Origin: an uncultured Acidobacteriota bacterium
GTDB taxonomy: Bacteria; Acidobacteriota; Blastocatellia; RBC074
Assembly (NCBI GenBank): GCA_963796275.1
Contig: CAWCKY010000001.1
Span: forward strand, 992,001 to 1,056,000
Reading direction: 5' to 3'
DNA length: 64,000 bases
The notes below the pieces were generated by a model. It had not been told where the DNA came from and did no database searches. It saw only the letters and a list, made by a program, of their open reading frames with translations. Positions within the stretch are counted from its first letter, which is position 1. Each line of letters starts with the position of its first letter. The position numbers were made by a program, and so were the translations under genes. Below are positions 1,371 through 37,868 of this stretch, piece after piece.

Positions 1371-1402
1371 TCAGCCCTCGCTGGATCGAAACATTTGGCG
1401 TG

Positions 1403-1500
1403 CGCGAAGCCGTAAAGACGCAAGGAAGGGGTAGAAGAAGGAAAAGGACATTTTATCTCTTAAATTCCTTCTTCTCTTCGCGCCTTCGCGGCTCCGCGTG
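1403..1500. repeat. Imperfect inverted repeat / REP-like hairpin between TBDR and TonB
   Basis: CGCGAAGCCG...AGAAGAAGGAA pairs with TTCCTTCTTCT...CGGCTCCGCG; right arm recurs at ~6188-6232. Confidence 0.5.
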
Positions 1501-1516
1501 AGATCTCCCAGCTTAT

Positions 1517-2386
1517 ATGAAGATCGCTGCAACATTATTTTTACTCTGTCTGGTGATTAACAGCGGTCAGCAGATCACCGAGTTCCAGAAGGAGGCGCTG
1601 TCATCTGTTCAGCACCGCTTAGCATCGAGCTTCGATGAAGGATTACCCAGACGCCCCTTCGGTGAGTGGTTCAAGGAGATGGCTGGTGAGCGGGCCGGGG
1701 TGATCTGGCAATTGAGCGAGTGTGGCGACCCGGCAAGCGCTGCGGACACAGTCGAGGATATGCCGGCCTGCGCAGAAGTCAATGCAGTCTTGCCCAATGG
1801 GAGCAAGGTAGTGGTCATGATTCTGGTCGGAACATTCAAGAAAGGGCGAATAGGCGAGCCGTCATTCCTGGGAGCGGTGATTGAACAAAATGACCAGTTC
1901 TACCAGGTGAGCCGGCTACGTGATTTGCCTAAGTTGGTGCACGACCCCGGGAGCCGCCCGGTCAGTTTGCCGGGAGTAACGGCGAAGCAGGCGCTGCTGA
2001 AGTTACGCTATCAGTCTCTGCCAGCCTCGGAGACGAGCTATCTGGAAAAGGGTGCGAACGGCTCGGAAGAGCAGTTGCCTCCGCCGGCACCGCCGCGGAA
2101 GGTGGAGGAGGTAGTAGTTCAAGGTTGGGCAGTAACCAGGATCAAACCGGTCTATCCCGCAAGCGCGAAGAAGATGAATGCATATGGAGCGGTAGAGGTT
2201 CGGATAATCATCTCGCCGGATGGGAAGGTGATTGATGCGAGAGCCATCAGCGGCCATTTCGCGCTGCGCGGCGCTGCGGTAGAAGCGGCGCACGGTTGGG
2301 TATTCAAACCGACGACTATCGATGGTGTACCGGTCAATACTGAGAGCGTGTTGACATTCGTCTTCGCTCGCGGCGCGAAAAAATAA
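1517..2386 (+). CDS. TonB family protein (signal peptide, uncharacterised N-domain, Pro-rich linker, TonB_C), copy 1
   Basis: PVYPASAK..GAVEVRIIISPDGKV..A..GWVFKP TonB_C motif after PPPAPP linker. Confidence 0.85.
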   Translation: MKIAATLFLLCLVINSGQQITEFQKEALSSVQHRLASSFDEGLPRRPFGEWFKEMAGERAGVIWQLSECGDPASAADTVEDMPACAEVNAVLPNGSKVVVMILVGTFKKGRIGEPSFLGAVIEQNDQFYQVSRLRDLPKLVHDPGSRPVSLPGVTAKQALLKLRYQSLPASETSYLEKGANGSEEQLPPPAPPRKVEEVVVQGWAVTRIKPVYPASAKKMNAYGAVEVRIIISPDGKVIDARAISGHFALRGAAVEAAHGWVFKPTTIDGVPVNTESVLTFVFARGAKK

Positions 2387-2807: not shown

Positions 2808-5800
2808 TTGAAGCAAATGATAAAAATGCTCTGCTTGATTAGTGCGCTTACTCTGAACACCGCAATTATTTGTGGTCAATCGCGGAGTTCATCTGCCGAC
2901 CTCACCGGAATTGTCCTGAGTCCCTCGCAATCGTCCTTGGCAGGAGTCACAGTCACGGCGTTGAATCTTTCCACCGGGATGGCGCGCACAGTCACGACAG
3001 ACGCAACGGGTAATTATCGCATTCCGCTGATGCCCCCCGGCAGATACGAAGTAAGGGTCGATGCATCGGGATTCAACACGCAGGTCAAAAGAGGTATTAC
3101 TCTGACAGTAGGCCAGATCGCTGTGGTTAACTTCGAGATGACTCTCGGAGTAATTAAAGAGGCCGAAGTGGTCGAAACCGACACTCCGGTGATTGAAACC
3201 GAGCGAACGCATCAGTCTTCAACCGTCACTCAGAGATCGATCCTGAACTTTCCGATCAATGGACGCAGATTCCTCGACTTCGCCAGACTGACTCCGGGCG
3301 TTGTCGAAGAGAGTCCGGCAGTAACTGCGGTCCAGACCCCCGCGATGACGACTTCGGGCCTCTCTTTCGGCGGCCTGAACGCGCGCGGTAACAGCGTGCT
3401 GATTGACGGTGTGGATAATAATGACATCGCCACTAACGGTGTGCGTCCGACGATCAGCCAGGAAGCGGTCAGCGAGTTTCAGATCAACCGTAACGGTTAT
3501 AACGCCGAGTTCGGCCGTGCCATCGGAGGCGTCATCAATCTCGTCTCGAAGAGCGGCGAAAATCAATTTCACGGAAACGTCTATAATTATTTCCGCAACG
3601 AGCGATTGGATGCGCGAAACACTTTCGCTACGGGACAACTGAAAGACCCGCCGTACAAACGCAACCAGCCAGGCTTCACCTTCGGCGGACCGATAAAAAA
3701 AGACAAGACATTTTTCTTCACCGCCTACGAGGGCCTGATCAGGCGCGAGTCGGCCGTTACCACGATCTTGTCGGATCCCGGGATATTGCAACCGACTGGT
3801 GAACAGCAAGAGCTGATCAACACATTGATTGGCTCGGGCTCGCCGTTGTTTGTGAATCTGGGAGCGGGGCTCAGGGCGCTTCTCACTACTTCGCCGAATA
3901 GCCAATTTCCACCTGAACTCCAGTCTTTCCTCCCGTTCCCCTTCACTCCGCTCAACCGGACTACTTATCAGCTGCTTGCCGGTTCGACCGGGGTTTTCCC
4001 CATCGACCAGACTGCCAGCACAGGCAGCTTCAGGCTCGACCATGGGGTCAGCGAACGTGATTTGTTTTTCTTTCGCTATAACCTGACCAACGACAGCCAG
4101 CATGACGTCGGCATCGGAGGTCAGATGGCTCCCTCGAGCGGATTCGACATCGCGAGTCGTGATCACACCTTCGTTTTCGGCCATACCCACATCTTCAACA
4201 GCGGGGGAAAAACTAACGAGTTCCGTCTCCAATTTCTCCGCAATGTTTTTAACGCCAACACGGTAGATGCTTTCGGGCCGCGCTTGAGAATAGCCGGCAT
4301 CGGCAATTTCGGTCGCGAGTTCTTCTCTCCATCGGATAGGACGCAGAAGAATATTCAGTTCGTCGACAATTTCAGCCTGACCAGAGGCAAGCAAAATATC
4401 AAAATGGGGGCCGATTTCAGCCGCTACGACCTCGATACTATGACAGCAGCTTTCCTGGGCGGCATGATTGACTTCTCGCAGTTGTACGAGGTTCACCTCG
4501 ATACCATCTTCGGTAGCAGGCCGGAATATCAAGCATTGATAAACGCGCTTGGCGCACCGATCGCCTCGGGCGGACTGGGTCGCCCCGACCTCATTCCGGT
4601 ATTGAACGTACTGCCGTTGACCACGGTACAGCAGATGAACCTCGGATTTGCTCGCGCGATCAACCAGGGATTCGGCGATCCCAATGTGGCGATGACCGGG
4701 CATAACCTTGGGTTATATTGGCAGGATGGCGTGAAAGCGCTGCCCAATTTGTTCCTGAGCTTTGGCCTGCGCTATGACTACCAACTGCAGCCCGTAGGGA
4801 TACCGCGCGATGGCAATAATTTCGGACCGCGATTCGGTTTCGCGTACGATCCTTTCAAGAAAGGGAGGACGGTGATCCGCGGCGGCGGCGGTCTCTACTA
4901 TCAATATATCTCCGGGAGCGCTTCGTTCGCTTCAATGGCTCTCGGCGGCCAGCAAATCAGCAGTTTATTGGTATCCGCGGACCCTATGCTGACACCGGCA
5001 TACGGAAATACGGTGTGCAGCCAGCTGGCTGCATCCGCATTAAGATATCCGCCATCATTCTGTTTCTATCAGAATCTTGCCGGGAGCGGTCTGTTGAATT
5101 TTCCGATGACCGCGAGCATCCCCGAATCTGCTTATACCAATCTACTCGGTCTGACGCGTGATACCAGCACGAACAGGCTTTTGTTGCGTCTGGCTGGAAA
5201 CGCCGTCAATCCCTACAGCGTTCATGGCAATCTCGGTATCGATCACCAATTCAATGGAGATTGGAACCTGTCCGTCAATTACCTGATCAATCATGGTGTA
5301 AATCTGATACGCACCCGTCAGGTCAATGCGCTCCCGGATCCGACCTTCCTCGATAGATTGGGACGTCCTTCGCTGCGGGGACGGGTAGACCAGACGCGGC
5401 TGGCGGATTTTCTCCTGGAAACGGCGGGCAATTCGATCTATCACGGTCTGAATGTAGAGATCGATAAACGCTTCAGTCGTTACTACCAGATAATCGGTTC
5501 ATACAGCTTCGGCAAAACGATCTCCGATACGGCTGATTTCGTGTTCGAACAGGGGCCGCAAGACCCAACCAACGCGCTGGCCGATCGCGGTCTCTCGTCT
5601 TTCGATGTGCGCCACCGCCTCTCGCTGGCGGCGCTCTTCGAAAGCCCGTTTCGTGGCGGCAAGGGCAGTGGGTGGTACCAGAGAGCACTCGCCGATTTTT
5701 ACCTATCGCCGATCTTCACGGTGCGATCCGGATTTCCATGGGACATACGGACGGGAATTGACGTCAATCAGGACAGTAACCTTAACGACCGCCCGTTCGC

Positions 5801-6107
5801 GGTAGGTCGCAATACGGGGATCGGGCCCGGATTCTATACCGTCGACTTTCGTTTAGGGCGGCGCTTCCGCTTCAATCGCGATGGTACGCGATCGCTCGAA
5901 TTAATTTTCGATGCGTTCAATCTCTTCAACCGGGTAAATTTCAAGGAGGTGAATGGGAATACCTACGGCGCCCTCTACCTGGATCAAATGGGGATTACTG
6001 ATAACCGAGTCCGCGGCAGTGCGGATCTAATGCCGAGCAGTTTCGGCGGATTCACCTCCGCCTATGATCCGCGGATCATACAAATCGGAGTGAAGTTCAA
6101 TTTTTAA
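2808..6107 (+). CDS. TonB-dependent receptor with N-terminal carboxypeptidase-regulatory-like domain
   Basis: AGGAGG at 2795-2800 before TTG 2808; DGVDNND, AEFGRAIGGVINLVSKSG plug motifs; C-terminal KFNF. Confidence 0.92.
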   Translation: MKQMIKMLCLISALTLNTAIICGQSRSSSADLTGIVLSPSQSSLAGVTVTALNLSTGMARTVTTDATGNYRIPLMPPGRYEVRVDASGFNTQVKRGITLTVGQIAVVNFEMTLGVIKEAEVVETDTPVIETERTHQSSTVTQRSILNFPINGRRFLDFARLTPGVVEESPAVTAVQTPAMTTSGLSFGGLNARGNSVLIDGVDNNDIATNGVRPTISQEAVSEFQINRNGYNAEFGRAIGGVINLVSKSGENQFHGNVYNYFRNERLDARNTFATGQLKDPPYKRNQPGFTFGGPIKKDKTFFFTAYEGLIRRESAVTTILSDPGILQPTGEQQELINTLIGSGSPLFVNLGAGLRALLTTSPNSQFPPELQSFLPFPFTPLNRTTYQLLAGSTGVFPIDQTASTGSFRLDHGVSERDLFFFRYNLTNDSQHDVGIGGQMAPSSGFDIASRDHTFVFGHTHIFNSGGKTNEFRLQFLRNVFNANTVDAFGPRLRIAGIGNFGREFFSPSDRTQKNIQFVDNFSLTRGKQNIKMGADFSRYDLDTMTAAFLGGMIDFSQLYEVHLDTIFGSRPEYQALINALGAPIASGGLGRPDLIPVLNVLPLTTVQQMNLGFARAINQGFGDPNVAMTGHNLGLYWQDGVKALPNLFLSFGLRYDYQLQPVGIPRDGNNFGPRFGFAYDPFKKGRTVIRGGGGLYYQYISGSASFASMALGGQQISSLLVSADPMLTPAYGNTVCSQLAASALRYPPSFCFYQNLAGSGLLNFPMTASIPESAYTNLLGLTRDTSTNRLLLRLAGNAVNPYSVHGNLGIDHQFNGDWNLSVNYLINHGVNLIRTRQVNALPDPTFLDRLGRPSLRGRVDQTRLADFLLETAGNSIYHGLNVEIDKRFSRYYQIIGSYSFGKTISDTADFVFEQGPQDPTNALADRGLSSFDVRHRLSLAALFESPFRGGKGSGWYQRALADFYLSPIFTVRSGFPWDIRTGIDVNQDSNLNDRPFAVGRNTGIGPGFYTVDFRLGRRFRFNRDGTRSLELIFDAFNLFNRVNFKEVNGNTYGALYLDQMGITDNRVRGSADLMPSSFGGFTSAYDPRIIQIGVKFNF

Positions 6108-6248
6108 ACAGCCTCGTAAGGTTGGGGCAAAAAACTCAGGCGAAGCCGCCATCCGTCAGAAAAGACCAGGGAAAGAAAGACATTTTTATTCCTTCTTCTC
6201 TTCCGGCCTTTGCGGCTTTGCGGCTCCGCGTGAGATCTCCCAGCTTAT

Positions 6249-7115
6249 ATGAAGATCGCTGCAACATTATTTTTACTCTGTCTGGTGATTAACAGCGGTC
6301 AGCAGATCACCGAGTTCGAGAAGGAGGCGCTGTCATCTGTTCAGCGCCGCTTAGCATCGAGCTTCGATGAAGGATTACCCAGACGCCCCTTCAGTGCGTG
6401 GTTCAAGGAGATGGCTGGTGAGCGGGCCGGGGTGATCTGGCAATTGAGCGAGTGTGGCGACCCGGCAAGCGCTGCGGACACAGTCGAGGATATGCCGGCC
6501 TGCGCAGAAGTCAATGCAGTCTTGCCCAATGGGAGCAAGGTAGTGGTCATGATTCTGGTCGGAACATTCAAGAAAGGGCGAATAGGCGAGCCGTCATTCC
6601 TGGGAGCGGTGATTGAACAAAATGACCAGTTCTACCAGGTGAGCCGGCTACGTGATTTGCCTAAGCTGGTGCACGACCCCGGGAGCCGCCCGGTCAGTTT
6701 GCCGGGAGTAACGGCGAAGCAGGCGCTGCTGAAATTACGCTATCAGTCTCTGCCAGCCTCGGAGACGAGCTATCTGGAAAAGAGTGCGAACGGCTCGGAA
6801 GAGCAGTTGCCTCCGCCGGCACCGCCGCGGAAGGTGGAGGAGGTAGTAGTTCAAGGTTGGGCAGTAACCAGGGTCAAACCGGTCTATCCCGCAAGCGCGA
6901 AGAGGATGAATGCATATGGAGCGGTAGAGGTTCGGATTATCATCTCGCCGGATGGGAAGGTGATTGATGCGACAGCCATCAGCGGCCATATAGCGCTGCG
7001 GATCGCTGCGGTGAAGGCGGCGCGCGGCTGGGTATTCAAACCGACGACTATCGATGGAGTACCGGTCGATACTGAGAGCATTCTGACATTTGTCTTCGCT
7101 CGTAGCTCAAATTAG
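6249..7115 (+). CDS. TonB family protein, copy 2 (near-identical to 1517..2386)
   Basis: Same domain layout; long stretches of nucleotide identity at offset 4732. Confidence 0.85.
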   Translation: MKIAATLFLLCLVINSGQQITEFEKEALSSVQRRLASSFDEGLPRRPFSAWFKEMAGERAGVIWQLSECGDPASAADTVEDMPACAEVNAVLPNGSKVVVMILVGTFKKGRIGEPSFLGAVIEQNDQFYQVSRLRDLPKLVHDPGSRPVSLPGVTAKQALLKLRYQSLPASETSYLEKSANGSEEQLPPPAPPRKVEEVVVQGWAVTRVKPVYPASAKRMNAYGAVEVRIIISPDGKVIDATAISGHIALRIAAVKAARGWVFKPTTIDGVPVDTESILTFVFARSSN

Positions 7116-8256: not shown

Positions 8257-8710
8257 CCACTGCCAAATTTGCCTTCCAGCGTGCGGTACTGCACTACCTC
8301 CGAAATATGCCGCTCGTCGATTTCGGCCGCGCCTTCCAAATCCGCGATCGTCCGCTGACCTTGAGAATCCTATCGTATGACCTCGCCGACAGGTTTTTAA
8401 TCGCGCGCTCCGGCCGGGAGAGAGGTGGTAGTATTTGCGGATCATTCGCGGCGTCATCTGCGCGTTGCAGAAACATGTTATGCAAAAGTTTGCTGCTGAA
8501 TTTTCCTCGCCCGGCCGATTGCTCGAGGGATTTCGGCTGAGCCCTCCAAAGCTTCCTGCAATGACAACTCGGTCACTTTAACTGCGGGCGCGTCGATGTG
8601 GATGTCTATGCGGTCGAGCAGCGGACCCGAAATCTTCGAGATGTACCGCTGAATCTGTAGCGGCGTGCATTTGCAGTCACGCGACGGATCATTGAAATAG
8701 CCGCACGGCA
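8257..8710 (-). pseudogene. comM: Decayed duplicate of the 3' part of comM/yifB (displaced gene end; island boundary)
   Basis: Aligns to 16052..16531 ([32 protein letters not shown]..., [11 protein letters not shown]) with substitutions and small deletions; homology stops at the NPCPCG codons. Confidence 0.9.
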
Positions 8711-9213
8711 TATATGCGTTGCGATTTTGCATGCGCAGACTCATTGGCAGAAATCCTGTCGCTATCTTTGTCTAAATTCGTGTTCAAAACCTGACATCTG
8801 AAACGCATCAAGAGGAGAACGAAATCGCTTCGAAATCATTTTCTGAAAGATTCTTGCTAAATTAATCACTCTTTATACAGGGAGAGAGGACGGTGTGATA
8901 GCCATGCCCGAAACAGCTCTCAACCAGTGAAATGGTCGGAATGACTTGAGCGAGAAGGAAAAGGTAACCTGCAAGCGGGAAGACATAAACGGCAGCCGAC
9001 GGAGTGGATTGAGGGTAGCCTGCATATTCCTGCATTCTGTTAAGAAGTTGTTTCGAAGCCATTATCTCGCAGTCCAAATCTGATCTGTGTCATCGGCCCG
9101 TAATAATGAGTTCCCATCTAGCTTTGCGGTATTTGCTTTTCTACATCGAATTTATGCTGTCCAACAGGAATAGTTTACTGAATTGCATTTTAGGAGTATG
9201 CGGCGATCGGCCT

Positions 9214-9313
9214 GCATAACAACCAATTTGGGTTATTTATACTGTCAATGGCTGTATAAGACGTGGGGTTAGCCTTATTATTCGGTACATAGCCATAGAA
9301 TATATAGTTAGGC
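9214..9313 (+). other. Degenerate attC-like site
   Basis: GCATAAC ... GTTAGGC with internal ATGGCT/AGCCAT pairing; a second GTTAGGT core at 9366-9372 precedes the first cassette ORF. Confidence 0.4.
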
Positions 9314-9395
9314 GCGCTGAATGAATGGTTGCGCTTGCTGAAAGTAATATCTAAGGAATAAGACCGTTAGGTTAATTCCATGTCCAGGAAACATC

Positions 9396-9753
9396 ATGGC
9401 TTTGTGGCAGACTATTCTTTTCTTTGGGGTTGTGGTGATCATATTTGATGGAGTATGGGCACTGGTAGCCCGAAGCAAAGAATACAACTACGCAAGGGGT
9501 ACGTGGGTAAGCTTGCTTATATACCTGATTGCGGGAGGAGTGACAGCTAGGAGCGGTGGAGTTCTAGCAGGATTACTTGGCGGGTTGATAACTGCTGGTG
9601 TCGAAGCGACCATTGGTTGGTGGATCTCTTGGAAGATCGGTCCTGGGCGTCTGCCAAACACGGATTTGAGGGACACCCTTTACGCACTCTACTCAGTACA
9701 GTAGGTCTTGTTATGGTTACGGGAGCTGGCTGCGGACTTGTGGGAGCGGAGTA
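9396..9753 (+). CDS. Cassette: small multi-pass membrane protein (apparent frameshift near 9680)
   Basis: Three hydrophobic segments; a fourth (LLSTVGLVMVTGAGCGLVG) continues in another frame. Confidence 0.55.
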
Positions 9754-9768
9754 GCCAGTGGAGATACA

Positions 9769-10259
9769 ATGACTGAACAAGAAGAACAATACTTGTATTT
9801 TGTTTCCTGCATCAACGCTCTCAACAATGCTTGGCGGCTTCTGCAAGAAATCAAACGGTGCAAAAGAAATTCGCTTGTAGGCGCTGCTTTTCAATTTGCC
9901 TTAATTGAATACTCAAAACCGTATATAGTCTCCTTTGGGACTGTCTTGAACTCAAAAGGCAAATCCATTCCACGCAAACTCGATGAATCACACATCCCTG
10001 CCACGCATATCCAATTGCATAAGAGAATTATTGATGCGCGAGATCAGATTCATTCCCATTCTGATCTAACAGTAATGGAAGCCAAGCTGTACGTTAAGAG
10101 CAGTCCACAGGAAAGATCGTCGGTACAGTACAAAACAAAATATATGGTATTGAGGAGCTTTCAAACATCGATGCTATCATTGATCTAATAGAGCAAACAC
10201 TCGATAGTATGTATGTGGAAGCTAAAAGATTAGAAGCAGCATTACCAGTCACGTCATGA
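9769..10259 (+). CDS. Cassette: putative HEPN-domain protein (apparent frameshift near 10105)
   Basis: Helical protein with ALIEYSKP and RDQIHSHSD (Rx4-6H); C-terminus ..IEQTLDSMYVEAKRLEAALPVTS* in the shifted frame ends 7 nt before attC. Confidence 0.6.
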
Positions 10260-10266
10260 TAAGGTG

Positions 10267-10358
10267 GTCTAACAATCGGTTCGACGGGAGCCGCCGAAGC
10301 GGATTTCTCAAGGTTCCATCAGTGTTCGGCGGCGGCCCGATCAACCGGCGCGTTAGGT
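10267..10358 (+). other. attC site
   Basis: GTCTAAC (RYYYAAC) ... GTTAGGT (GTTRRRY), 92 bp, internal palindrome CGGTTCGACGGG.GCCGCCGAA / TTCGGCGGC.GCCCGATCAACCG. Confidence 0.9.
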
Positions 10359-10396
10359 AGCAATCAAAATACACTCGATTGCAGAGGATATTTAGT

Positions 10397-11601
10397 ATGG
10401 CTCTTCTTTCAATCTGGTCGTCTAATCCAGACGCTGTATTTTCATTATCAATTGAGCAAATTGTCGCGACAGCAGGTGATGGAAAGTTGCGCGATGACAA
10501 CGAATGTTCAGCTGAACTACAAACATTTTTAACGCAGGTGCCAAGTGAGAAGCTAGCAGAGTTTGCTGATTATTGTCTTAGTACAGGATTTAGCAAAAGC
10601 GGCTTGGTGTTACAAGATATCGTGAATGAGATTGGCAGAAGGCTTGATTATTACGTTATCAACGGTCGCTACCAAGGTACGGCTAATGCCATTGGTAATG
10701 ACGGTCTTTGGAGAAGCCCAGAGAATCACGATATACTTGTCGAAATCAAAACGACAGATGCATTTCGTATACCGCTAAACACGATCGCAACTTATAGAGA
10801 TAAGCTTCGGGGTGAGGGTAAGATAAACTGCTTAAACTCTATGCTACTTGTTGTTGGCCGTGAAGACACCGGAGAGATGGAGGCTCAGGTACGCGGCTCG
10901 CGACATGCTTGGGATATGCGATTGATAAGCGTTGATTCCCTTGTGCATCTCATAAGCTTAAAGAGAGTCGGAAGAAGCTGCTACCGGCTCTAAAATTAGA
11001 AGTGTATTGGTGCCCATGGAGTATACTCGTCTAGATGCTCTCATCGATGTTATGTTTACTACTGCAAAAGATGTTGAGAGCTCTGTAGACTCTGAAAAAC
11101 CCTCTGTTGATGAAGATAATGATGATAACGAAGATAGGCCGAGCTGGGAATTTACTGACCCGGCTTTAATGGCGGAAAAGCGTGACCGGATTATAAGTGC
11201 TTTTGCCCAACAGCATAAAGTAAAATTTTATTCGGAAAAGTCGCACTTTGTATTGGAATGCAGATCATAGCTTTAAAATAGTTTATCGGTGTCGAAACGT
11301 TACACGCGTAAGTGGAGAGCGCCCTTATTAATATGCATATCATCCTCAATCGAATGAATTCTTGACGGAGGCTGAAGATGGGTTTTTTATCCTAGGGTGT
11401 ATGGATTTAAGTATTGCGTTTGCATATACCAGTTCATATGATCAGGCACACCTCAGTGCGCTCAACACCACAAATAGGCGAGATGGGGCATTATACTTGG
11501 CATATAAAAATCCTAGAGTTCCAATCAGAGGTATACTCTTTGCATATGCAAAATCTGGAAGCCATGTTGGCATTATTATTCCATATAATTTTAAGTTTTG
11601 A
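10397..11601 (+). pseudogene. Cassette: PD-(D/E)xK restriction-endonuclease-like protein, multiply frameshifted
   Basis: LQDIVNE...GNDGLW...ILVEIKTT motif; ORFs 10379-10993, 11007-11270 and 11362-11601 read as consecutive pieces. Confidence 0.6.
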
Positions 11602-11627
11602 TCTTAAAATAAAATTCAATAAATGCA

Positions 11628-11737
11628 GCCTGACGATGTTGCACGAGCCGCTGCAACTATATACGTTCCACCGAAGCCCTTGAGTAGCCTGGGGGCCTAT
11701 AGCGAGGGCCGCGGCCCGGTAAACGCAGAACTTTCGC
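11628..11737 (+). other. Degenerate attC site
   Basis: GCCTGAC..TGTTGCACGAGCCGC ... GCGGCCCGGTAAAC matches arms of neighbouring attCs; R' core eroded. Confidence 0.5.
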
Positions 11738-11749
11738 TGGCCCACTTAT

Positions 11750-12245
11750 TAGGGAACACGACCCTCGATGTGAATATCTCGACGATGAGAAGGTGCTCGC
11801 TGATGTTGCTGATTATGGATGGCACGTCGTAAAGATATACTAGACTAATGAAACGCCGGGCTGGAGCTTCTCAATCGGGCTCTATCAAAATTTCAACCAT
11901 CCTGAAGTGATCGTATTCGGTCAAACAATGAATTGATGCATTCTATCATCAACAGCATCGGTGAAGATGTGCGTGCGGGAAAGAACTTCAAATTGATGAA
12001 AAATATACAGATATAATGATAAACTGTATTCTTGGCACATTCAAACAGGTGAATACTGTTTGGTACTACCATTTTCTAGGTTACGCGAAATTGGTTCTAT
12101 GAGAGTGAGGAGTATCCGGTACTTCAAGAGCATCTGGCCTGATCGGAATAGTTCGGCATCCCTGGGAGCCTGAATTCGATCCGAATTGGCTAGGCGCAAC
12201 CGTTGTTATTCTAACGATACCAGCGAAGTCGGCTCGCACAGCTGA
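11750..12245 (+). pseudogene. Cassette: DUF4262-like protein, frameshifted
   Basis: Pieces translate to DEKVLADVADYGWHVV, PGWSFSIGLYQNFNHPEVIVFG, WPDR..HPWEPEFDP. Confidence 0.65.
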
Positions 12246-12288
12246 ATTATTGAAGTCAATGGAGGGTGAGTTTTCTCGATCCCCGGCC

Positions 12289-12378
12289 AGCGAACAATAG
12301 TTGCACCGGAGCCGAGGACCGGCGTTTTCTTGAAAGCCGAGGCTACGGCGGCGACCCGTTTACACACAGCCGTTAGTT
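12289..12378 (+). other. attC site
   Basis: AGCGAAC-AATAGTTGCACCGGAGCCG ... CCGTTTACACACAGCC-GTTAGTT, 90 bp; next ATG at 12382. Confidence 0.8.
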
Positions 12379-12381
12379 GAC

Positions 12382-12930
12382 ATGAACTCCATACCACACC
12401 CGGGTAAATCGATGATCTTCAAGTGCACAAATAAGGTCAGGGAGATTTTGCAGATAGCCAATCGTGATCTGAATACTATTCCTGAACAATCTCCAGACAT
12501 CATCAAGTTCTGGTACTGCAATTTATTCTATTTGGATCGACACAAATGTTTGCTATTTACCCAAGCAAAAACACTCTTTAGTTTTTTGGTGCCGAAGGTT
12601 GGGAATGCCGAAATACGTGACTTTGGTAGATTGTTTCGATCCAATGCATATATTGCATTGGCGTCCGAAGGAGTATCGGCGCAAAATATTCAGAAGCTGA
12701 TTGATAATGGGCCTGACCTATATGCGAAATCAGATAATCGCTCAGTCCTGGGGTCAATGAATGATCATATACGAACCTGCAAGTTTTATCTGCAATATCA
12801 AGGCGGCTATAGCAACTTGAACTTTGCGGAATTGGGTCGGAAGCTAAACATATCACCAATGAAATATATCGAAATGGAAAGCGCAAGTAGATATCTTTTG
12901 GGTCTATTGAAAATCCAGCAACTTCGGTAA
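12382..12930 (+). CDS. Cassette: DUF6933-like hypothetical protein
   Basis: MIFKCTNK, WYCNLFYLDRHKCLLF, DNRSVLGSMND motifs. Confidence 0.7.
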   Translation: MNSIPHPGKSMIFKCTNKVREILQIANRDLNTIPEQSPDIIKFWYCNLFYLDRHKCLLFTQAKTLFSFLVPKVGNAEIRDFGRLFRSNAYIALASEGVSAQNIQKLIDNGPDLYAKSDNRSVLGSMNDHIRTCKFYLQYQGGYSNLNFAELGRKLNISPMKYIEMESASRYLLGLLKIQQLR

Positions 12931-12948
12931 TATTTGAGTGCAAAGGCT

Positions 12949-13036
12949 GCCTAACAAATTTCGAACCGGACCCGCCGAACCAGGGTTTTATTGAAGCCAA
13001 GGCCGCCTGCGCGCCCGGTGAATTCTGCAGTTATCC
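12949..13036 (+). other. attC site
   Basis: GCCTAAC-AAATTTCGAACCGG ... CCGGTGAATTCTGCA-GTTATCC, 88 bp. Confidence 0.85.
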
Positions 13037-13060
13037 TTTCATGGTAATAAAGTTATCGTT

Positions 13061-13783
13061 ATGGAAAATGAAATGATTGTTTGCGTTCCCGGTACCTGGG
13101 AAGATCGCACGAAGTTTATCGAAGCGGTCGTTACTTCAACGCACGGTGATTTTATGTTTGCCGGAATGTTTCTTGCCCATCCGAAGGGTAACGACCACGT
13201 TGAACTAGAATTCTATGACCCAGACGAGCAGATGGCAGAAGCCTTTGAATATGGCGGTCAGGGGAAATTGTCGGACGCAACGCTAGACCAAATCGCGCAG
13301 CACCGAAGCGTTATTTATCTGCATTTTCCTTTTGACATCATTTCACAGAAAGTGCGGCTTCTGAAATTTACTGAGGTGCTTTCCAAATGCGGTGGTATTG
13401 CCATTAAACTTGAGACCTCCAGCATTGCCCACGAATGGGAACGCTGGGTTGAATTGCTTCGGTCCGATAATCCTTTTGACACTTATTGTGCAAGTGTCGT
13501 TTTAGTTGGTGACGAGAGGTTTTACTACTCCTGTGGAATGCACAACTTCAGTTTGCCGGACGCTCAAGTCTCGAACAGTTTTGACGTGGAGGAAGCGGCA
13601 GATTTGATAAATGGCTTCAATAATTGGCAAATTGTTGAAAAGCCTATTTTGAAATCGGGGCATACGTTCAGCTTAACAGCAGATAGTCCACACTTTCGCC
13701 TTGAGTTGTTGAAGGATAAGCGGCATTCAGAGGATGATTTATTTTATAACCCGAACGGAGTGTGGGAGCTACGGCGCGACTAA
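13061..13783 (+). CDS. Cassette: DUF4261-like protein
   Basis: SCGMHNFSLPD, LKSGHTFS, FYNPNGVW; stop codon overlaps the attC R'' core. Confidence 0.7.
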   Translation: MENEMIVCVPGTWEDRTKFIEAVVTSTHGDFMFAGMFLAHPKGNDHVELEFYDPDEQMAEAFEYGGQGKLSDATLDQIAQHRSVIYLHFPFDIISQKVRLLKFTEVLSKCGGIAIKLETSSIAHEWERWVELLRSDNPFDTYCASVVLVGDERFYYSCGMHNFSLPDAQVSNSFDVEEAADLINGFNNWQIVEKPILKSGHTFSLTADSPHFRLELLKDKRHSEDDLFYNPNGVWELRRD

Positions 13784-13832
13784 CAAGTTGAGCGCAGGGG
13801 GTAGCGTGCCTGTCATAACACTGACGTTAGTT
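13778..13832 (+). other. Short attC-like site
   Basis: GACTAAC ... GTTAGTT, 55 bp; TAA of the upstream ORF lies in R''. Confidence 0.6.
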
Positions 13833-14172
13833 CAACCCGAGGGACGTGTGCATTGCCGCGCCTGCTCAATTCCAGCGTTACACGCCCGGGGCAGACAGAT
13901 GCCCAGTGTCGAAGTCGCCCTCTGAACCGGAACTGCGCAAGTTTGGCATCCACGAATCATCGTGGTTCGGGATGTCATCCCACCTGCGATTCTTGAGACG
14001 GCGTCGAGGTCGATCGAGCGTCTTGTTGACGAGCAGCCACATCCGGAAGGTCACGTGGGGCCCTACTTCTATTGGCTTCGTCCTCAGATGGTGGTCCGCT
14101 GCCTACGCGGTGAACCCCGACCTTAGGCGCATTCAACGCCACGATCGCTGGAACGGGCTTGCATGAAATCTT

Positions 14173-14757
14173 ATGAAATTTAGAACTTTAATAAATGGGT
14201 TTGGAGCGGTGAAAGAAGAGCGACAGGCGAAATCACTAGCGTGTGAATGTGATGCTGAGGAAGGGGAATTACATAAATTTGGGTGCCGTTGGGAATACTG
14301 TCCATTCTGTGAAAAACAATTCGTTGAAGGCTGCGAATGCTCTTATGACCTGCTTAGGTTGAAAAGCCGAATGCATTCTCCGCAGTTTGATCGCTTACCT
14401 CGGGATGTTTATGAGAAGGGGCTTTCGCCAGATTGTGAAGACCGGTGGTTCAAATTGTGCGAGTCAAAAGGTCGCATCCCATACATTTACTCTCCCCAGC
14501 TTTGTGCTCGCTGTGGAGTTCAGTGGCCAAAGTTTTTCATGGTCCAAGACCAGGTTTGGGAATATTACACGGGTCCTGAATTACGTGACAAACTTTTATG
14601 TGAAGAATGTTTCAGGGAGATAAGAACCTCAGTTGATAGGCATAACCTCCGTCCCGCCTGGCTGCCGGGCATTATAGAAGTTGAGGAATACATGAAGGCG
14701 TGGCGCGAAGGAGACATGGCGAAGTTGATGGAGTTCGAGCCAGAAAAGTTTAAATAG
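14173..14757 (+). CDS. Cassette: Cys-rich putative zinc-binding protein
   Basis: CEC..H..GC...CPFC..GCEC and CARC...CEEC; preceded by an attC-like right arm GCGGTGAACCCCGACCTTAGGC at ~14107-14128. Confidence 0.7.
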   Translation: MKFRTLINGFGAVKEERQAKSLACECDAEEGELHKFGCRWEYCPFCEKQFVEGCECSYDLLRLKSRMHSPQFDRLPRDVYEKGLSPDCEDRWFKLCESKGRIPYIYSPQLCARCGVQWPKFFMVQDQVWEYYTGPELRDKLLCEECFREIRTSVDRHNLRPAWLPGIIEVEEYMKAWREGDMAKLMEFEPEKFK

Positions 14758-14856
14758 TTTTTAGCGACACCCGCACCCCAAAGGGAAGATTTGTCTAGTT
14801 GCCTCTTGATCAACCTATGGAAGGCGGCGGCCGAAATATAGGTTCTTGGTGTTCAC

Positions 14857-14943
14857 ATCTAACAATGTTGTACCGGAGCCGCCGAACAGGGATTTTCTTA
14901 GAAGCGAGGTGTGACAGCGGCTCGGTGAACACGGCCGTTAAGC
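14857..14943 (+). other. attC site
   Basis: ATCTAAC-AATGTTGTACCGGAGCCGC ... GCGGCTCGGTGAACACGGCC-GTTAAGC, 87 bp. Confidence 0.9.
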
Positions 14944-15025
14944 CTTGTGTATGACCTTCGCCGAGCGAGCGATAATATTTCTGTTTGACCGTCACGAACA
15001 TTGTATCAATGCACAACTGCCCGCT

Positions 15026-15467
15026 ATGACACTTGATTATGACAAGATGATCGTTCTCGATGCCGAATGATCTGGCTGAGATTGGGATCGGGAATGCGTA
15101 CGAACAACTCCTGCCTAAGTTAAAGGAGTACGTTGCCGATCCGATTCGAGTAGAGGAGATTATTGACTCTGACCTACCTCGCTACGCCATCCGCGCCGGC
15201 GGCAATGAGTACGTTATTTATTCTCCAGATATGTTGACCGACGAGTACGAGAGTTGGGTTATCGCTACGTGCGTGTTCTTCAAGATCGTTAACGACCAGC
15301 TTGCTAACTCTAACGTCAGGTTTTACGCAATCAATGGTGGTAACGATCTGTGCGGAATGTTTCTCACGACTGAGCAGGCAGAGGCATCAAGGGCGACACT
15401 GCCTCGCCCTTTCGACTGGCCGTATCTGCCCGAGCTAATGAGTCCTTGGTATGGCCAACATCACTAG
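15026..15467 (+). CDS. Cassette: hypothetical protein (probable true start 15026 with 1-nt frameshift at ~15068)
   Basis: MTLDYDKMIVLDAE joins DLAEIGIGNAYEQ if one T is removed; CACTAAC (R''-like) follows at 15483. Confidence 0.6.
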
Positions 15468-15539
15468 ACGGCTGCTACTTCTCACTAACCCTTGGATTGC
15501 CGAGGGACAGAGAAAGTAAAACGAAAGGAAAAGCGAATT

Positions 15540-15926
15540 ATGAAGATTTCGAAAGCAGCGGTTCCCGAGAAAATAAATGTTCCAGGTGCAATTGCACGTC
15601 AGGAGTTGAATTTCGGTGACGCTACAGGGTACGGGAAAATTGCTGGAGAATATTTTTCCCTCAAAGCTGGAACCGATATAGCACCATTATTAAGAGGGCT
15701 AGAGGATGACCTCTGTCAGTCTCCTCATTGGGGCTATATGATGGAAGGTGAGGTGACGATCACCTATGCTGACGGACATGAAGAAACCATCTCTGCCAAC
15801 GATCTTTTCTATTGGCCTCCAGGGCACACAGTTAAAGTCGGAAGCGACGCCGAAATCATTCTTTTCAGCCCTCAAGAGGAGCATTGCAAGGTCGTTGATC
15901 ATCTGCACAAACAACTTGTCGGTTGA
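15540..15926 (+). CDS. Cupin-domain protein
   Basis: CQSPHWGYMMEG...FYWPPGH cupin motifs; AAGGAA RBS. Confidence 0.85.
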   Translation: MKISKAAVPEKINVPGAIARQELNFGDATGYGKIAGEYFSLKAGTDIAPLLRGLEDDLCQSPHWGYMMEGEVTITYADGHEETISANDLFYWPPGHTVKVGSDAEIILFSPQEEHCKVVDHLHKQLVG

Positions 15927-16051
15927 ATGCGAAAAAGATTTCCTTCTACCGAAAAAGCTGCCATAGGTTGCACAAAGCGACCTATTCGGGCAGATCGGTG
16001 ACCTTGGTACGGTTCTGGCCCCGGCGCCTTCAATCGCAGCGATCTTCATAC

Positions 16052-17599
16052 TCACTGCCAGAAGTTACGGTCCAGCGTGCGATACTGCACCGCCTCCGAA
16101 ATATGCCGCTCGTCGATCTCTGCCGCGCCTTCCAAATCCGCGATCGTCCGGCTGACCTTCAGTATCCTATCGTATGCCCTCGCCGACAGGCCATACTTTT
16201 TGATCGCGCGTTCCAGCAGGCTCTGCGGGCCGGGAGCGAGGTGGCAGTATTTGCGGATCATTCGCGGCGTCATCTGAGCGTTGCAGAAAACATGTTCCCC
16301 CGCAAAAGTTTGCTGCTGAATTTTCCTCGCCCGGCTGATTCGCTCGCGGATTTCGGCCGAGCCCTCCAATGCCTCATGCGATGACAACTCGGTAACCTTA
16401 ACTGCGGGCACGTCGATGTGAATGTCTATGCGGTCGAGCAGCGGACCTGAAATCTTCGAGATGTACCGCTGAATCTGCGGCGGCGTGCATTTGCAGTCAC
16501 GCGTCGAATCATTGAAATAGCCGCACGGGCACGGGTTCATAGCCGCAACCAGCATGAAGCTGGCCGGAAAGGTCAACGACATTGAGGCGCGGCTGATGGT
16601 CACTCTCTGATCTTCGAGCGGCTGCCTCAGAACTTCCAGGACATTGCGCTCGAATTCAGGAAGTTCGTCGAGGAAGAGAAGACCGTTATGGGCGAGGCTC
16701 ACTTCGCCGGGTCGCGGAATCGACCCGCCGCCGATCAATCCGGCATCGCTGATTGTGTGATGAGGTGAGCGGAATGGGCGTATCGTGAGCAGCCCGCGCG
16801 AGTCGGTGAAGCCCGCGACGCTGTGGATCTTCGTCATCTCCAATGCCTCTTCGAAGGTCATCGGTGGCAGGATTGATGGAATACGTTGGGCGAGCATCGT
16901 CTTGCCAGATCCCGGCGGTCCGATCATAAGCAGGTTATGGGAGCCGGCCGTAGCGACCTCGATCGCTCGCTTGGCGCTCATCTGCCCGCGCACTTCGCGG
17001 AAATCGACCGGATGTTGATCGGCGCGGCTGAACATCTCTTCAATATCGACACGCATCGGCCGAGGCATCGGATCTGCGTTCAGGAGTGCGATCACTTCAC
17101 GCAGGTCTCTGACCGGATAGACGTCGAGGCCGTTCACGACCGCAGCCTCGCTCGCATTTTCGACCGGCAATAAAAGTCGCTTGAGATTCTTGCCTCTGGC
17201 GGCGATGGCGATTGGCAAAGCGCCTCGCACCGGCCTAACTCTTCCATCGAGCGCCAACTCGCCGATTATCAGCGAGTCATCCAGTCTCTCGCGTTTCAGT
17301 TCTCCGCTTGCTCCGAGTATGCCCACCGCGATCGGCAGGTCGAATGCAGACCCTTCCTTCTTCACATCAGCCGGCGCCAGATTGACGATGGTTTTATAGA
17401 CAGGGAAGATGAGCCCGCTGTTGGTGACGGCTGAACGAATACGCTCACGGCTTTCGCGTACGGCCATATCCGGCAAGCCGACCACTGTCACCATTGGTTC
17501 CTGTTGCGGATCGCCAGTGCGTGGCGCCAGGTGCACTTCGATCTCAACTAGTTCTGCATCGATGCCATAGACGGCGGCGCTGAGGGTTTTATAGAGCAC
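16052..17599 (-). CDS. comM: YifB/ComM Mg-chelatase-like AAA+ ATPase
   Basis: [44 protein letters not shown]; GGAGG RBS before GTG at 17599. Confidence 0.97.
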
Positions 17600-19987: not shown

Positions 19988-20857
19988 ATGAAATCACCGC
20001 ACAAGTCACTTTTGCCCCAACTGCTGATCGTGGTCTGCCTGTGGTTTGCCCTGGCCCACCTTGCAGCAGCGCAACAACGGCCATTTCCTGATTATGTTGG
20101 TCACGTCAACGATTTTGCTGATATCGTGGACGCGCAGACTGAGCAGAAGCTGGAGACGATTCTTACGAATTTCGAGGGATTGACCGGCGCTCAGATCGCG
20201 GTCGTCACGGTCCAATCGCTAAATGATCGACCGATAGAAGAATATGCGAACGAGCTCTACCGCGCATGGGGTATTGGGGCCAAGGCCGGAGAGCACAAGG
20301 ACAAAGGCGCGTTGCTGCTGATATCCTTGCGTGACCGTAAGACGCGCCTGGAAGTGGGTTATGGGTTGGAAGGCGACCTTCCTGATGGGCTGGCCGGGGA
20401 AATAATCCGGAGAATGCGGCCATTTCTTCAGCAGCAGCAATACTCGCAGGGAATCAACGTCGGTGTCAGGACCCTGGTAGATACTCTGGCCGAGAAGTGG
20501 AATATCAATATAACCGGCATCGAGGATCGCGCTTATGCTTATAAATCCCCCGCAGGGGAAGGGCGGTCAAGTGTGCGCGGTTCACTCGCATTTCTAGGTC
20601 TCCTCCTCATCTTCGTCATTATTATATTTATTATTGCGCGCTCGCGCGGCAAACGAGGCGGCGGCACCGGTACGAGAGGGGGCGGCCGTGACCTATGGTG
20701 GACATATCCGATTATTTTCAATCGCGGCGGCGGTACATTCGGCGGCGGCTCCTGGGGCAGTAGCGGCGGCGGCTGGAGTAGCAGCGGAGGTGGCGGCGGC
20801 TGGGGCGGTTTCGGAGGCGGCAGCAGCGGCGGCGGCGGCGCCAGCGATAGCTGGTGA
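19988..20857 (+). CDS. TPM-domain (YgcG family) membrane protein
   Basis: [25 protein letters not shown] helix, Gly-rich tail GGGGASDSW. Confidence 0.93.
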
Positions 20858-20941
20858 ATAGTTTTCAGTTCTTAGTTTTAAGTTTCAGTTTGATGATCTC
20901 GATCGGCAACTGAAAACTAAAACTGAAAACTGAAAACTATT
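20857..20941. repeat. Heptamer-repeat inverted hairpin (AGTTTTC / GAAAACT)
   Basis: AATAGTTTTCAGTT... vs ...AACTGAAAACTGAAAACTATT. Confidence 0.8.
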
Positions 20942-20956
20942 TTTGAGGTTTCTACA

Positions 20957-21673
20957 ATGAATTCAGAATTCGGCGAACTAGTTTCCCGATTGCACGCTAG
21001 CCAGGGACGAAATCTGGTCTCAGTCATCGTTTACGGTTCGGCGATCGTCGCGCCGGGCAATACCCCAAAATCCGACTATCATATTGTGATCGTCACCAGG
21101 CGGCTTTCAGCCACCGATCTCAGGCTGGCCCGTCCGATCGCCCAATGGTGGACCGCCGAGGGATATTCGCTGCCCGTCTTCTTCACAGCGGAAGAGTTCG
21201 ATGACTCGCTCGATGTCTATCCGATCGAGTTTCGGCATATGAAGCGAGCCTATCAGGTGCTCTACGGTCCGGACCTGCTCGCGGGCAAGGAAATTTCCAA
21301 TGAGAGTCTGCGATGGCAAACCGAACACGAACTGCGCGGAAAGCTTCTGCGTCTGCGCTCTCTTTACCTTCCCGCCAGTCTGTCCGCCCACGATCTGATG
21401 AGGCTAATGACACAGAGCGTGGTCACATTCGTGCATTTTATGCGCCCGGTGCTGCAGATGCTCGGAGAAGAGCCACCCCTTGGCCGCATGGCCACGGCGC
21501 TGCGCGTCGGGCAACGTTTAGAGATCGATATGGCTCCGGTAATGCGCGTTCTCCAACTGCGCGATGAACCCAAAGAATTGATGGATATCGAAGTCCATGA
21601 TCTTTTTGCAGGCTATCTGGACAGCCTCGACCGGGTCATCGGGGCTGTGGATAATATGTTAATTGATAATTGA
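20957..21673 (+). CDS. Nucleotidyltransferase-fold protein
   Basis: [14 protein letters not shown] Pol-beta-like motif; DVYPIEF. Confidence 0.75.
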
Positions 21674-21763
21674 TAATTGATAGTTACCTGTTGATGGCTG
21701 ATAGTTCGTAAACACTGTGGCAACAATTTATACGAACTATTATCAATTATCAATTATCAACTA
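21660..21763. repeat. Hairpin element with (TAATTGA)n arms and conserved 32-bp core
   Basis: Core TTCGTAAACACTGTGGCAACAATTTATACGAA (21705-21736); inverted near-copy at 25763-25794. Confidence 0.85.
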
Positions 21764-22507: not shown

Positions 22508-22598
22508 GAGCATTGTTAATTGTTCATTGTTAATTTTACATTTAACATTTTCCTTCAATGACAAATGTAAAATTAACTATGAACAATTAACAATGCTC
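22508..22598. terminator. Long AT-rich inverted repeat between convergent genes (probable bidirectional terminator)
   Basis: GAGCATTGTTAATTGTTCAT...ATGAACAATTAACAATGCTC. Confidence 0.75.
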
Positions 22599-25714: not shown

Positions 25715-25830
25715 GATAATGGATAATGGATAATGGATAATAGATAAAATGATAATTGATAATTCGTATAAATTGTTGCCACAGGGTATACGAATTATCA
25801 TTATCCATTATCCATTATCAATTATCCATT
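25715..25830. repeat. Hairpin element with (GATAATG/T)n arms and conserved 32-bp core (inverted relative to 21660)
   Basis: Core TTCGTATAAATTGTTGCCACAGGGTATACGAA, 2 mismatches to the reverse complement of 21705-21736. Confidence 0.85.
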
Positions 25831-37780: not shown

Positions 37781-37868
37781 TTGACGTTTGTGATTTTAGA
37801 TTTGTTATTTGTAGGAAAAAGAATGCTCCATCAACGACAAATGACAAATCTAAAATCACAAATGTTAA
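37781..37868. repeat. Heptamer-type inverted repeat hairpin downstream of treY
   Basis: TTTGTGATTTTAGATTTGTTATTTGT / ACAAATGACAAATCTAAAATCACAAA. Confidence 0.75.

What the first reader, a model, noticed from the sequence alone, without database searches (positions are those of the whole stretch)
9214..15490. Integrase-less integron cassette array (CALIN) with a homogeneous attC family
Seen: four clear 87-92 bp attC sites (10267, 12289, 12949, 14857) share internal sequence (AAC-AA...ACCGGAGCCGCCGAA...TTT.TT.AAG...GCGGC.CGGT.AAC...GTTA), plus short or degenerate sites (9214, 11628, 13778, ~14110, 15483). Each separates single co-oriented ORFs that start just after GTT and stop at or just before AAC. 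No intI lies upstream. Established: related attCs typify lineage-specific sedentary integrons, and CALINs can be acted on in trans. To my knowledge cassette arrays in Acidobacteria are little characterised.
Basis: partly seen in the sequence, partly recalled or inferred. Interest (0 to 1): 0.75.

Follow-up and report, generated by a model that had tools for sequence, protein, structure and literature searches.

The report
Decaying integron array inside comM island
This is a real but decaying row of integron gene cassettes with no integrase, and it sits inside an island at a known insertion hotspot of the DNA-uptake gene comM, where comM is unusually left whole rather than broken.

Summary
The CALIN is real. 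There are four attC sites of 87-92 bp, 64-71% identical to each other. A model built only from them picks out class 1 integron attCs as its top five hits, and no intI is found in the window. The weaker sites are mixed: 13778 is a different attC type, 11628 is decayed, ~14110 and 15483 are half sites, and 9214 is not attC-like. Six of nine array genes are broken or remnants.

The array fills a 7.3-kb, low-GC island bracketed by a 477-nt, 87%-identical repeat of the comM 3' end: intact comM on one side, a pseudogenised 3' piece on the other. The repeat begins in the MNPCPC codons, where serine-recombinase prophages insert, and ends at the stop codon. An excess of synonymous differences suggests two alleles.

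Most likely the array was cargo of a comM-targeting element that supplied a replacement comM 3' end, then lost its integrases. Insertion followed by repair is the main rival. A lineage-specific sedentary integron is not shown. The cargo looks defence-like. No empty site or intact element was found. Verdict: new variant of a known kind.

The parts
8258..8708 (-). Degenerate copy of the comM/yifB 3' end, from P357 (in MNPCPC) to the stop; displaced original 3' end, attR-like island boundary
   Evidence: 87% over 477 columns with 27 gap positions vs 16053-16528; 35 substitutions; 7 changes at columns at least 95% conserved
8709..9213 (.). Spacer with no recognisable gene; the place where intI and/or the element's recombinase would be expected (inference)
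   Evidence: six-frame Pfam/NCBIfam negative; IntI1, LSR and tyrosine-recombinase tblastn negative; GC 44%
9214..9372 (+). Array head: three GTTAG cores at 9268, 9307, 9366; attI-like candidate, not an attC
   Evidence: P(3 or more in 690 bp) 1e-4 at the rate outside the island, 0.04 under an iid 44% GC model; no family similarity
9396..9754 (+). Small membrane protein ORF; stops at 9704, and a hydrophobic tail continues in another frame (inference)
   Evidence: no Pfam
9769..10259 (+). ORF in two frames; HEPN/AbiU2-like lead only
   Evidence: score 0.89 to a cluster with 27% PF18734; RDQIHSH resembles the recalled HEPN Rx4-6H motif
10267..10358 (+). attC, 92 bp, best preserved
10397..11611 (+). 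One ~399-codon gene for a PD-(D/E)XK restriction-like nuclease, broken by at least three frame changes and in-frame stops
   Evidence: homologue P0121, 399 aa, 86% over the first 189 aa; its model (pLDDT 79) best matches HindIII (E 5e-5), then BspD6I, Shedu, FokI
11628..11738 (+). Decayed attC of the family, both core triplets mutated
   Evidence: z 2.2-4.1 vs the four sites; R1 E 0.94
11750..12300 (+). DUF4262 pseudogene, several breaks
   Evidence: PF14081 E 5e-11 in one frame, 0.11 in another
12289..12378 (+). attC, 90 bp, atypical inverse core AGCGAAC
   Evidence: matches TTTCGCT at the start of its own cassette 6 of 7
12382..12930 (+). Intact DUF6933 gene; matches PADLOC candidate defence system PDC-S63
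   Evidence: PF22016 E 2e-31; PDLC05054 E 3e-13
12949..13036 (+). attC, 88 bp
13061..13783 (+). Intact DUF4261 gene; its stop overlaps the next inverse core
   Evidence: PF14080 E 1e-7; full-length matches in 4 of 5 plasmid records
13778..13883 (+). attC-like site of a different type (106 bp; nested 55-bp hairpin 13778-13832)
   Evidence: (E 0.033 for the nested part)
13884..14128 (+). Cassette remnant and right-arm half of an attC (14093-14128)
14173..14757 (+). Intact Cys-rich gene of an unnamed family
   Evidence: 488 relatives at E<=0.001, best 49% and also 194 aa
14857..14943 (+). attC, 87 bp
14951..15467 (+). ~172-codon gene of unknown function with one frameshift
15483..15489 (+). Lone inverse core CACTAAC; the rest of the site is missing
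15540..15926 (+). Cupin gene, island cargo with no attC after it
   Evidence: candidate site at 15955-16020 rejected; GC3 43% vs comM 69%
16052..17596 (-). Intact comM/yifB (514 aa); 16052-16528 is the repeated 3' part, attL-like boundary at 16528
   Evidence: TIGR00368 above cut-off; PF01078; 91% to closest relatives

Best explanation
The array is the cargo of a dead integrative element at the comM hotspot. (1, shown) An integron-type array of about nine genes lies between intact comM and a decayed copy of the comM 3' end. (2, shown by comparison) The decayed copy begins at C356/P357 of the MNPCPC motif, the crossover used by other comM-targeting elements. (3, inferred) The element carried its own allele of the comM 3' end, through to the stop codon. 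Integration therefore rebuilt a working comM and displaced the host's 3' end to the far side, where it decayed. (4, inferred) The array was assembled earlier by an IntI at an attI near 9268-9372. intI and the element's recombinase were lost, most simply in one deletion in the 500-bp gap between the far junction and the array head. (5, shown) With no integrase in cis the array is frozen and eroding; three genes remain intact, one a candidate anti-phage gene. Only the best-preserved attCs could still be used by an IntI supplied in trans (inferred).
For: The repeat starts at the motif and ends exactly at the stop; the downstream flanks differ. Same site elsewhere: attB and attP of one serine recombinase share a core encoding MNPCP (PMC10083194 supplement 3, row 431). 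In Acetoanaerobium noterae, comM is split into residues 1-358 and 356-end around an LSR prophage. In P. aeruginosa record L084 the 3' half starts at M353 beside a tyrosine-recombinase module, on the side where the gap lies here. Two alleles: 19 of 35 differences are synonymous vs 8-11 expected under local duplication then decay (P 0.0005-0.02), and the pseudo-copy has the residue seen in close relatives at 3 of 15 positions. The intact gene shows no decay in either half (private changes 15 of 334 and 7 of 142). The island is low-GC. A second intact-comM + cargo + decayed-3'-piece locus exists (L022).
Against: No recombinase or remnant was found, so the vehicle is unidentified. No empty site or intact element was seen: the 80 comM loci were at most 66% identical, and 0 of 80 held this attC family. 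All characterised elements I read of disrupt comM rather than restore it. An attP arm equal to the comM 3' arm fits poorly with recalled serine-recombinase attB x attP logic. The synonymous excess weakens to P 0.005-0.10 if all 16 non-synonymous changes are charged to the pseudo-copy. L022's piece starts about 30 codons later, and no attC of this family was found there. Only 1 of 6 motif variants hit the LSR table and 0 of 6.
Confidence: 0.5

Rival explanations
1. Disrupt, then repair. An ordinary comM-disrupting element (serine-recombinase type) carrying the array inserted at MNPCPC. Later recombination with DNA from a relative restored a whole comM and removed the recombinase end, stranding the array. 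A variant is single-crossover integration of an aberrantly excised circle via the comM 3' homology.
For: In A. noterae the LSR lies next to the 5' half of comM, exactly the slot now held by the intact 3' end and the cupin. It explains the missing recombinase and the second allele at once. The far junction is a normal attR.
Against: Homology stops at the stop codon instead of running into shared downstream DNA. The 5' half shows no sign of a non-functional period. It does not explain the loss of intI at the other end.
Confidence: 0.27
2. One reading: a relic of a lineage-specific sedentary chromosomal integron, with the comM repeat an unrelated local duplication.
For: Four related attCs; Acidobacteria have chromosomal attCs; CALINs are proposed to be degraded integrons.
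Against: The array exactly fills the repeat-bounded, low-GC interval. The repeat starts at a known crossover site and shows a synonymous excess. There are few sites, mixed types and moderate identity. No attC of this family was found beside comM in the 15 Acidobacteriota loci among the 80 fetched, though all are distant.
Confidence: 0.1
3. In-situ build-up. A small comM island came first, and an IntI encoded elsewhere later inserted cassettes at a secondary (attG) site in it, and then at the resulting attCs.
For: IntI inserts cassettes at GWT genomic sites, and half of CALINs are in genomes with an intI. No intI remnant is present. The related attCs suggest one source integron.
Against: About nine cassettes is long for this route (1362 of 2961 CALINs have two). 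The clustered GTTAG cores at the head look like a dedicated site. An intI elsewhere in the genome is untested.
Confidence: 0.1
4. Assembly chimera: two strains' comM regions joined.
For: The contig has indel errors: mnmA carries a 1-nt insertion.
Against: The second copy has 6- and 13-nt deletions and 7 changes at near-invariant residues, which a live allele would not. It starts at a biological hotspot. The contig is 1.32 Mb.
Confidence: 0.03

Closest known systems
[quoted passage not shown]
   Same: At least 2 attC sites, co-oriented promoterless-type genes, no intI or intI pseudogene nearby; size near the average of 5-6 sites; 2961 are known in RefSeq.
   Different: Enclosed by a comM 3' direct repeat, not by an IS; no transposase family among the 48 ORFs scanned.
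Large-serine-recombinase elements targeting Mg-chelatase/comM (PMC10083194; sr1WO in PMC9203015; alphaproteobacterial pipolins in PMC11551731; A. noterae prophage)
   Same: Same gene and, where I could map it, the same MNPCPC crossover.
   Different: They split comM and encode an LSR; here comM is whole, its 3' end is duplicated, and no LSR is present.
AbaR/Tn6022 and Tsy elements in comM (PMC11441513, PMC10293859)
   Same: Islands in comM; AbaRs often carry a class 1 integron.
   Different: They are anchored at the Walker B region about 45 codons upstream, inactivate comM, and need Tns/TnsF proteins, none seen here. The array here is not class 1 resistance cargo.
Gene-restoring islands (tRNA/tmRNA islands; e14 and phage 21 at icd) - recalled, from no call
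   Same: Intact target gene, then the island, then a displaced 3' fragment in direct repeat.
   Different: The target is comM, the fragment is 477 nt, the cargo is an attC array, and no integrase is left.
Sedentary chromosomal integrons as defence biobanks (10.1101/2024.07.02.601686)
   Same: Small single-gene cassettes with nuclease-like or candidate defence functions.
   Different: No intI, fewer than 10 sites, island context, most genes broken.

Membership tests
attC site | Inverse core ending AAC and core GTTRRRY at the ends, 55-145 bp apart | tested here: met
   Four main sites and 13778-13883; not met for 11628, ~14110, 15483, 9214
attC site | Bottom-strand hairpin with paired R box, unpaired central spacer, L box and extrahelical bases | tested here: met
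   Free fold for 10267 and 14857, constrained for 12289 and 12949; consensus has single-base bulges; no covariation in 4 rows
attC site | Recognised by a covariance model of known attCs | tested here: inconclusive
   IntegronFinder's model was not available; the reverse test passed: the window-only model finds 5 class 1 attCs as its top hits
attC site | Recombined by IntI as bottom strand | not testable with these tools
   needs an assay
CALIN | Two or more clustered attC sites | tested here: met
CALIN | No intI within 4-10 kb | tested here: met
Sedentary chromosomal integron | intI and attI upstream of the array | tested here: not met
   no intI; attI only a candidate
Sedentary chromosomal integron | Present in all strains of the species, or more than 19 attC (more than 10 in the 2022 paper) | tested here: not met
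   count criterion fails with 5 whole plus 3 partial sites; species-wide presence untested (criteria)
Sedentary chromosomal integron | Homogeneous, lineage-specific attC family | tested here: inconclusive
   64-71% identity; the published Acidobacteria model was partly viewed but could not be run
comM-targeting serine-recombinase element | Junction in the MNPCPC codons of comM | tested here: met
comM-targeting serine-recombinase element | Encodes a large serine recombinase at the att site | tested here: not met
comM-targeting serine-recombinase element | comM split by the insertion | tested here: not met
   comM intact, 514 aa
Tn6022/Tsy | Insertion anchored at Walker B; Tns or YRec/TnsF genes | tested here: not met
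   junction is about 45 codons downstream of the Walker B motif; no such genes
Gene-restoring genomic island | Intact target gene, foreign-composition cargo, displaced 3' fragment in direct repeat | tested here: met
Gene-restoring genomic island | Integrase and an empty site in relatives | tested here: inconclusive
   no integrase; no close relative among 80 loci

The most novel reading that the evidence does not exclude
An undescribed class of elements enters comM at the same MNPCPC hotspot as comM-destroying prophages but rebuilds the gene with its own 3' end, so the host stays transformable. These elements act as vehicles for integron cassette arrays with defence-like genes in Acidobacteriota; this locus is an integrase-less fossil of one.
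Probability: 0.25. Interest if true: 0.75.

Novelty: new variant of a known kind. Interest (0 to 1): 0.5.

Why it matters
Mobile elements are thought to target comM in order to switch off natural transformation, which can purge them (passages of PMC11441513 and the PMC10083194 supplement). An island at the same crossover that leaves comM whole either separates 'conserved landing site' from 'sabotage of transformation', or records the host repairing comM and freezing the island. Either reading gives a concrete route to a CALIN; 95% of CALINs had no nearby intI pseudogene in PMC4889954. The pattern (intact comM, cargo, 3' fragment from MNPCPC) is easy to search for at scale. The CALIN alone is ordinary.

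Tried and rejected
Rfam and tRNA scans of the window: 0 hits. Island DNA against plasmids: 2 records, both to the cupin. attC 14857 against plasmids: only chance-level matches, none covering 80%. The intact nuclease homologue had no plasmid, Pfam, NCBIfam or PDB sequence match. PADLOC matched 1 of 12 proteins. The promoter scan of 8600-9500 found 1 site against 1.8 expected. A heuristic attC scan found 2 of the 4 sites plus one lone candidate at 60784-60877, not pursued. A putative attC after the cupin (15955-16020) does not fold as one. AT-rich palindromes elsewhere in the window are not attCs. My first synonymous test (P 7e-5) used the wrong null; the corrected values are. Seven departures at conserved columns in the comM 5' half first looked like decay, but four are shared with, or also altered in, the two closest relatives, which show 5 and 6 such departures themselves. 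E. coli: 10 extra places in 5426 genomes; of two examined, one is an IS1 insertion and the other has its second place outside the 40 kb fetched, so neither shows this architecture. The comM 3' part in plasmids: 52 records, 52 places, no duplicate. Synteny with the hydrolase or SLT neighbours was not seen next to comM in the 80 loci. Metagenome and viral contig collections, and the rest of this genome, stayed unchecked.
Full report
OBSERVATION. Each runs from an AAC-ending inverse core to a GTT core. Pairwise identity is 64-71%, with 0 of 300 shuffles reaching the score for all 6 pairs. Bottom strands of 10267 and 14857 fold unaided into the attC hairpin; the other two need the core forced. The alignment shows 84% paired cells but no compensatory change. 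The attC anatomy I apply is recalled and agrees with passages of PMC4889954. The strongest test was a reverse one: covariance model R1, built from these four sites only, ranked five class 1 integron attCs first among 12 matches in two reference plasmids, all on the bottom strand; it missed three others there. In the window R1 and a profile HMM found no family copy outside the array, so the repeats are not scattered at this scale.

WEAKER SITES. 13778-13883 is a full-length site of another type. 11628-11738 is a decayed family member. 14093-14128 is a right arm, and 15483 is a lone inverse core. 9214 is not family-like; instead three GTTAG cores sit at 9268, 9307 and 9366, an attI-like candidate that I could not verify. 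One cassette keeps a telling signature: the unusual inverse core AGCGAAC at 12289 matches TTTCGCT at the start of the same cassette (6 of 7), as a circular intermediate would require. The other cassettes match 4-6 of 7 (the ~14110 pairing was mis-indexed there and is 4 of 7 by inspection).

GENES. Of nine genes or remnants between 9396 and 15467, three are intact: DUF6933, which matches PADLOC candidate PDC-S63; DUF4261; and a Cys-rich protein with 488 relatives. 10397-11611 is one 399-codon gene with at least three frame changes. An intact homologue, modelled from 47 of the 120 listed hits, best matches HindIII, then BspD6I, Shedu and FokI (TM-scores 0.25-0.31, so a domain-level match), in line with a FokI-cleavage-domain lead. 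A DUF4262 gene is in pieces. ORF 9769 has a weak HEPN lead. The contig has indel errors (mnmA), so the three single-break genes may be intact in the cell; the multiply broken ones are unlikely to be.

NO INTEGRASE. IntI1 found nothing in the window (best E 0.21), nor did a serine recombinase and three proteins of a tyrosine-recombinase module. Pfam on 48 ORFs, and Pfam and NCBIfam on six frames of 8710-9400, were negative.

WHAT WAS MISSED. The array is bracketed by a direct repeat: 16053-16528, the 3' end of an intact comM/yifB, and 8258-8708, an 87%-identical decayed copy. Between them lie 7.3 kb at 46% GC against 53-55% outside. The copy starts at C356/P357 of MNPCPC and ends at the stop codon. 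That motif is a documented crossover. One row of supplement 3 of PMC10083194 gives attB and attP sharing a core that encodes MNPCP. In the A. noterae chromosome comM is split into 1-358 and 356-end, with a convergent large serine recombinase beside the 5' half. In L084 the 3' half starts at M353 beside a tyrosine-recombinase module. The same paper reports this gene family as the target of 12.4% of predicted site-specific LSRs. Tn6022 and Tsy use the Walker B region instead.

TWO ALLELES. Of 35 substitutions between the copies 19 are synonymous. With 120 relatives as outgroup, the pseudo-copy carries 7 changes at near-invariant residues but has the residue seen in close relatives at 3 of 15 positions. 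Duplication followed by decay predicts 8-11 synonymous differences (P 0.0005-0.02); under a less favourable count P is 0.005-0.10. This is moderate evidence that both copies were once under selection. The intact gene shows equal private change in both halves (15 of 334, 7 of 142), so there is no trace of a broken period.

HOW COMMON. The one genome scan sampled 600 comM stretches and kept 80, at most 66% identical. Of these, 63 had at least 3 kb downstream, and 1 (L022) shows intact comM, 2 kb of 28%-GC cargo and a decayed 87% 3' piece, starting about 30 codons later than here. None of the 80 held this attC family under default filters. E. coli shows at most 10 cases in 5426 genomes, and the two examined are not of this kind. 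No empty site was seen.

MECHANISM. Most likely (0.5) an element carrying the array and a replacement comM 3' end integrated at the hotspot, restored comM, then lost intI and its recombinase. Next (0.27), an ordinary disrupting element was later overwritten at its recombinase end by comM DNA from a relative. A resident sedentary integron (0.1), in-situ build-up by an IntI in trans (0.1) and misassembly (0.03) follow. The array, the repeat, the junction and the decay are shown; the vehicle, the order of events and any activity are inferred. The precedent of gene-restoring islands (tRNA islands, e14/icd) and the serine-recombinase att-site logic are recalled, from no call.

HOST AND LITERATURE. 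Named ComM hits are Blastocatellia or Acidobacteria. CALINs are common (279, then 2961), and 120 acidobacterial attCs were already modelled. AbaR islands in comM often carry class 1 integrons but inactivate the gene. I found no description of an attC array in a comM-restoring island in the held library. comM+integron+attC gave 1 review (listing only). Related searches were seen as listings. I read passages only of PMC10083194 (plus supplement rows), PMC10293859, PMC8352920 (plus supplement rows and one part of file 4; file 5 unreadable), PMC9203015, PMC11441513, PMC5447182, PMC11551731, PMC4889954, PMC5385486, 10.1101/2022.09.11.507474, 10.1101/2024.07.02.601686 and 10.1101/2022.02.28.482270. 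The TIGER paper 10.1093/nar/gkaa156 was not held; it, subscription papers and bioRxiv supplements may already list such comM islands.

VERDICT. A real, eroding CALIN, ordinary in itself, in an unusual setting: a comM-hotspot island that leaves comM whole. New variant of a known kind; interest 0.5.

Noticed in passing
window 12-2370 and 4743-7102: Tandem duplication (83.7%) of a TonB-dependent receptor 3' part plus a TonB-C gene.
   Followed up: no
window 20857-20941, 21650-21760, 22508-22598, 25715-25830, 37781-37868: AT-rich intergenic palindromes built from 6-7-nt tandem units; two of them are related to each other. Not attC.
   Followed up: partly
window ~27517: mnmA is split by a 1-nt insertion in a short C run, probably an assembly error.
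   Followed up: partly
window 58387-62337: A TonB-dependent receptor gene is split over three ORFs.
   Followed up: no
window 60784-60877: Lone attC-like hairpin from the heuristic scan, inside the split receptor gene; probably chance.
   Followed up: no
L022 10001-13674: Second locus with intact comM, two low-GC ORFs and a decayed 3' comM piece with an internal deletion.
   Followed up: partly
L081 3432-3992: Phage record PP197248 contains comM residues 197-358 beside its serine recombinase; may be host flank included in the record.
   Followed up: partly
L083 16507-19998: In A. noterae, about 3.5 kb of extra genes lie between the prophage match and the comM 3' half; the record is a 2.6-Mb replicon filed as a plasmid.
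   Followed up: no
L082 3998-7676: Evtepia phage record carries comM 1-309 followed by a C5 methylase and a SacI-like endonuclease.
   Followed up: no
L084 1980-8438: Four-gene module with two annotated integrases next to a comM 3' half starting at MNPCP in a P. aeruginosa record; resembles GInt or Tsy modules (label inferred).
   Followed up: partly
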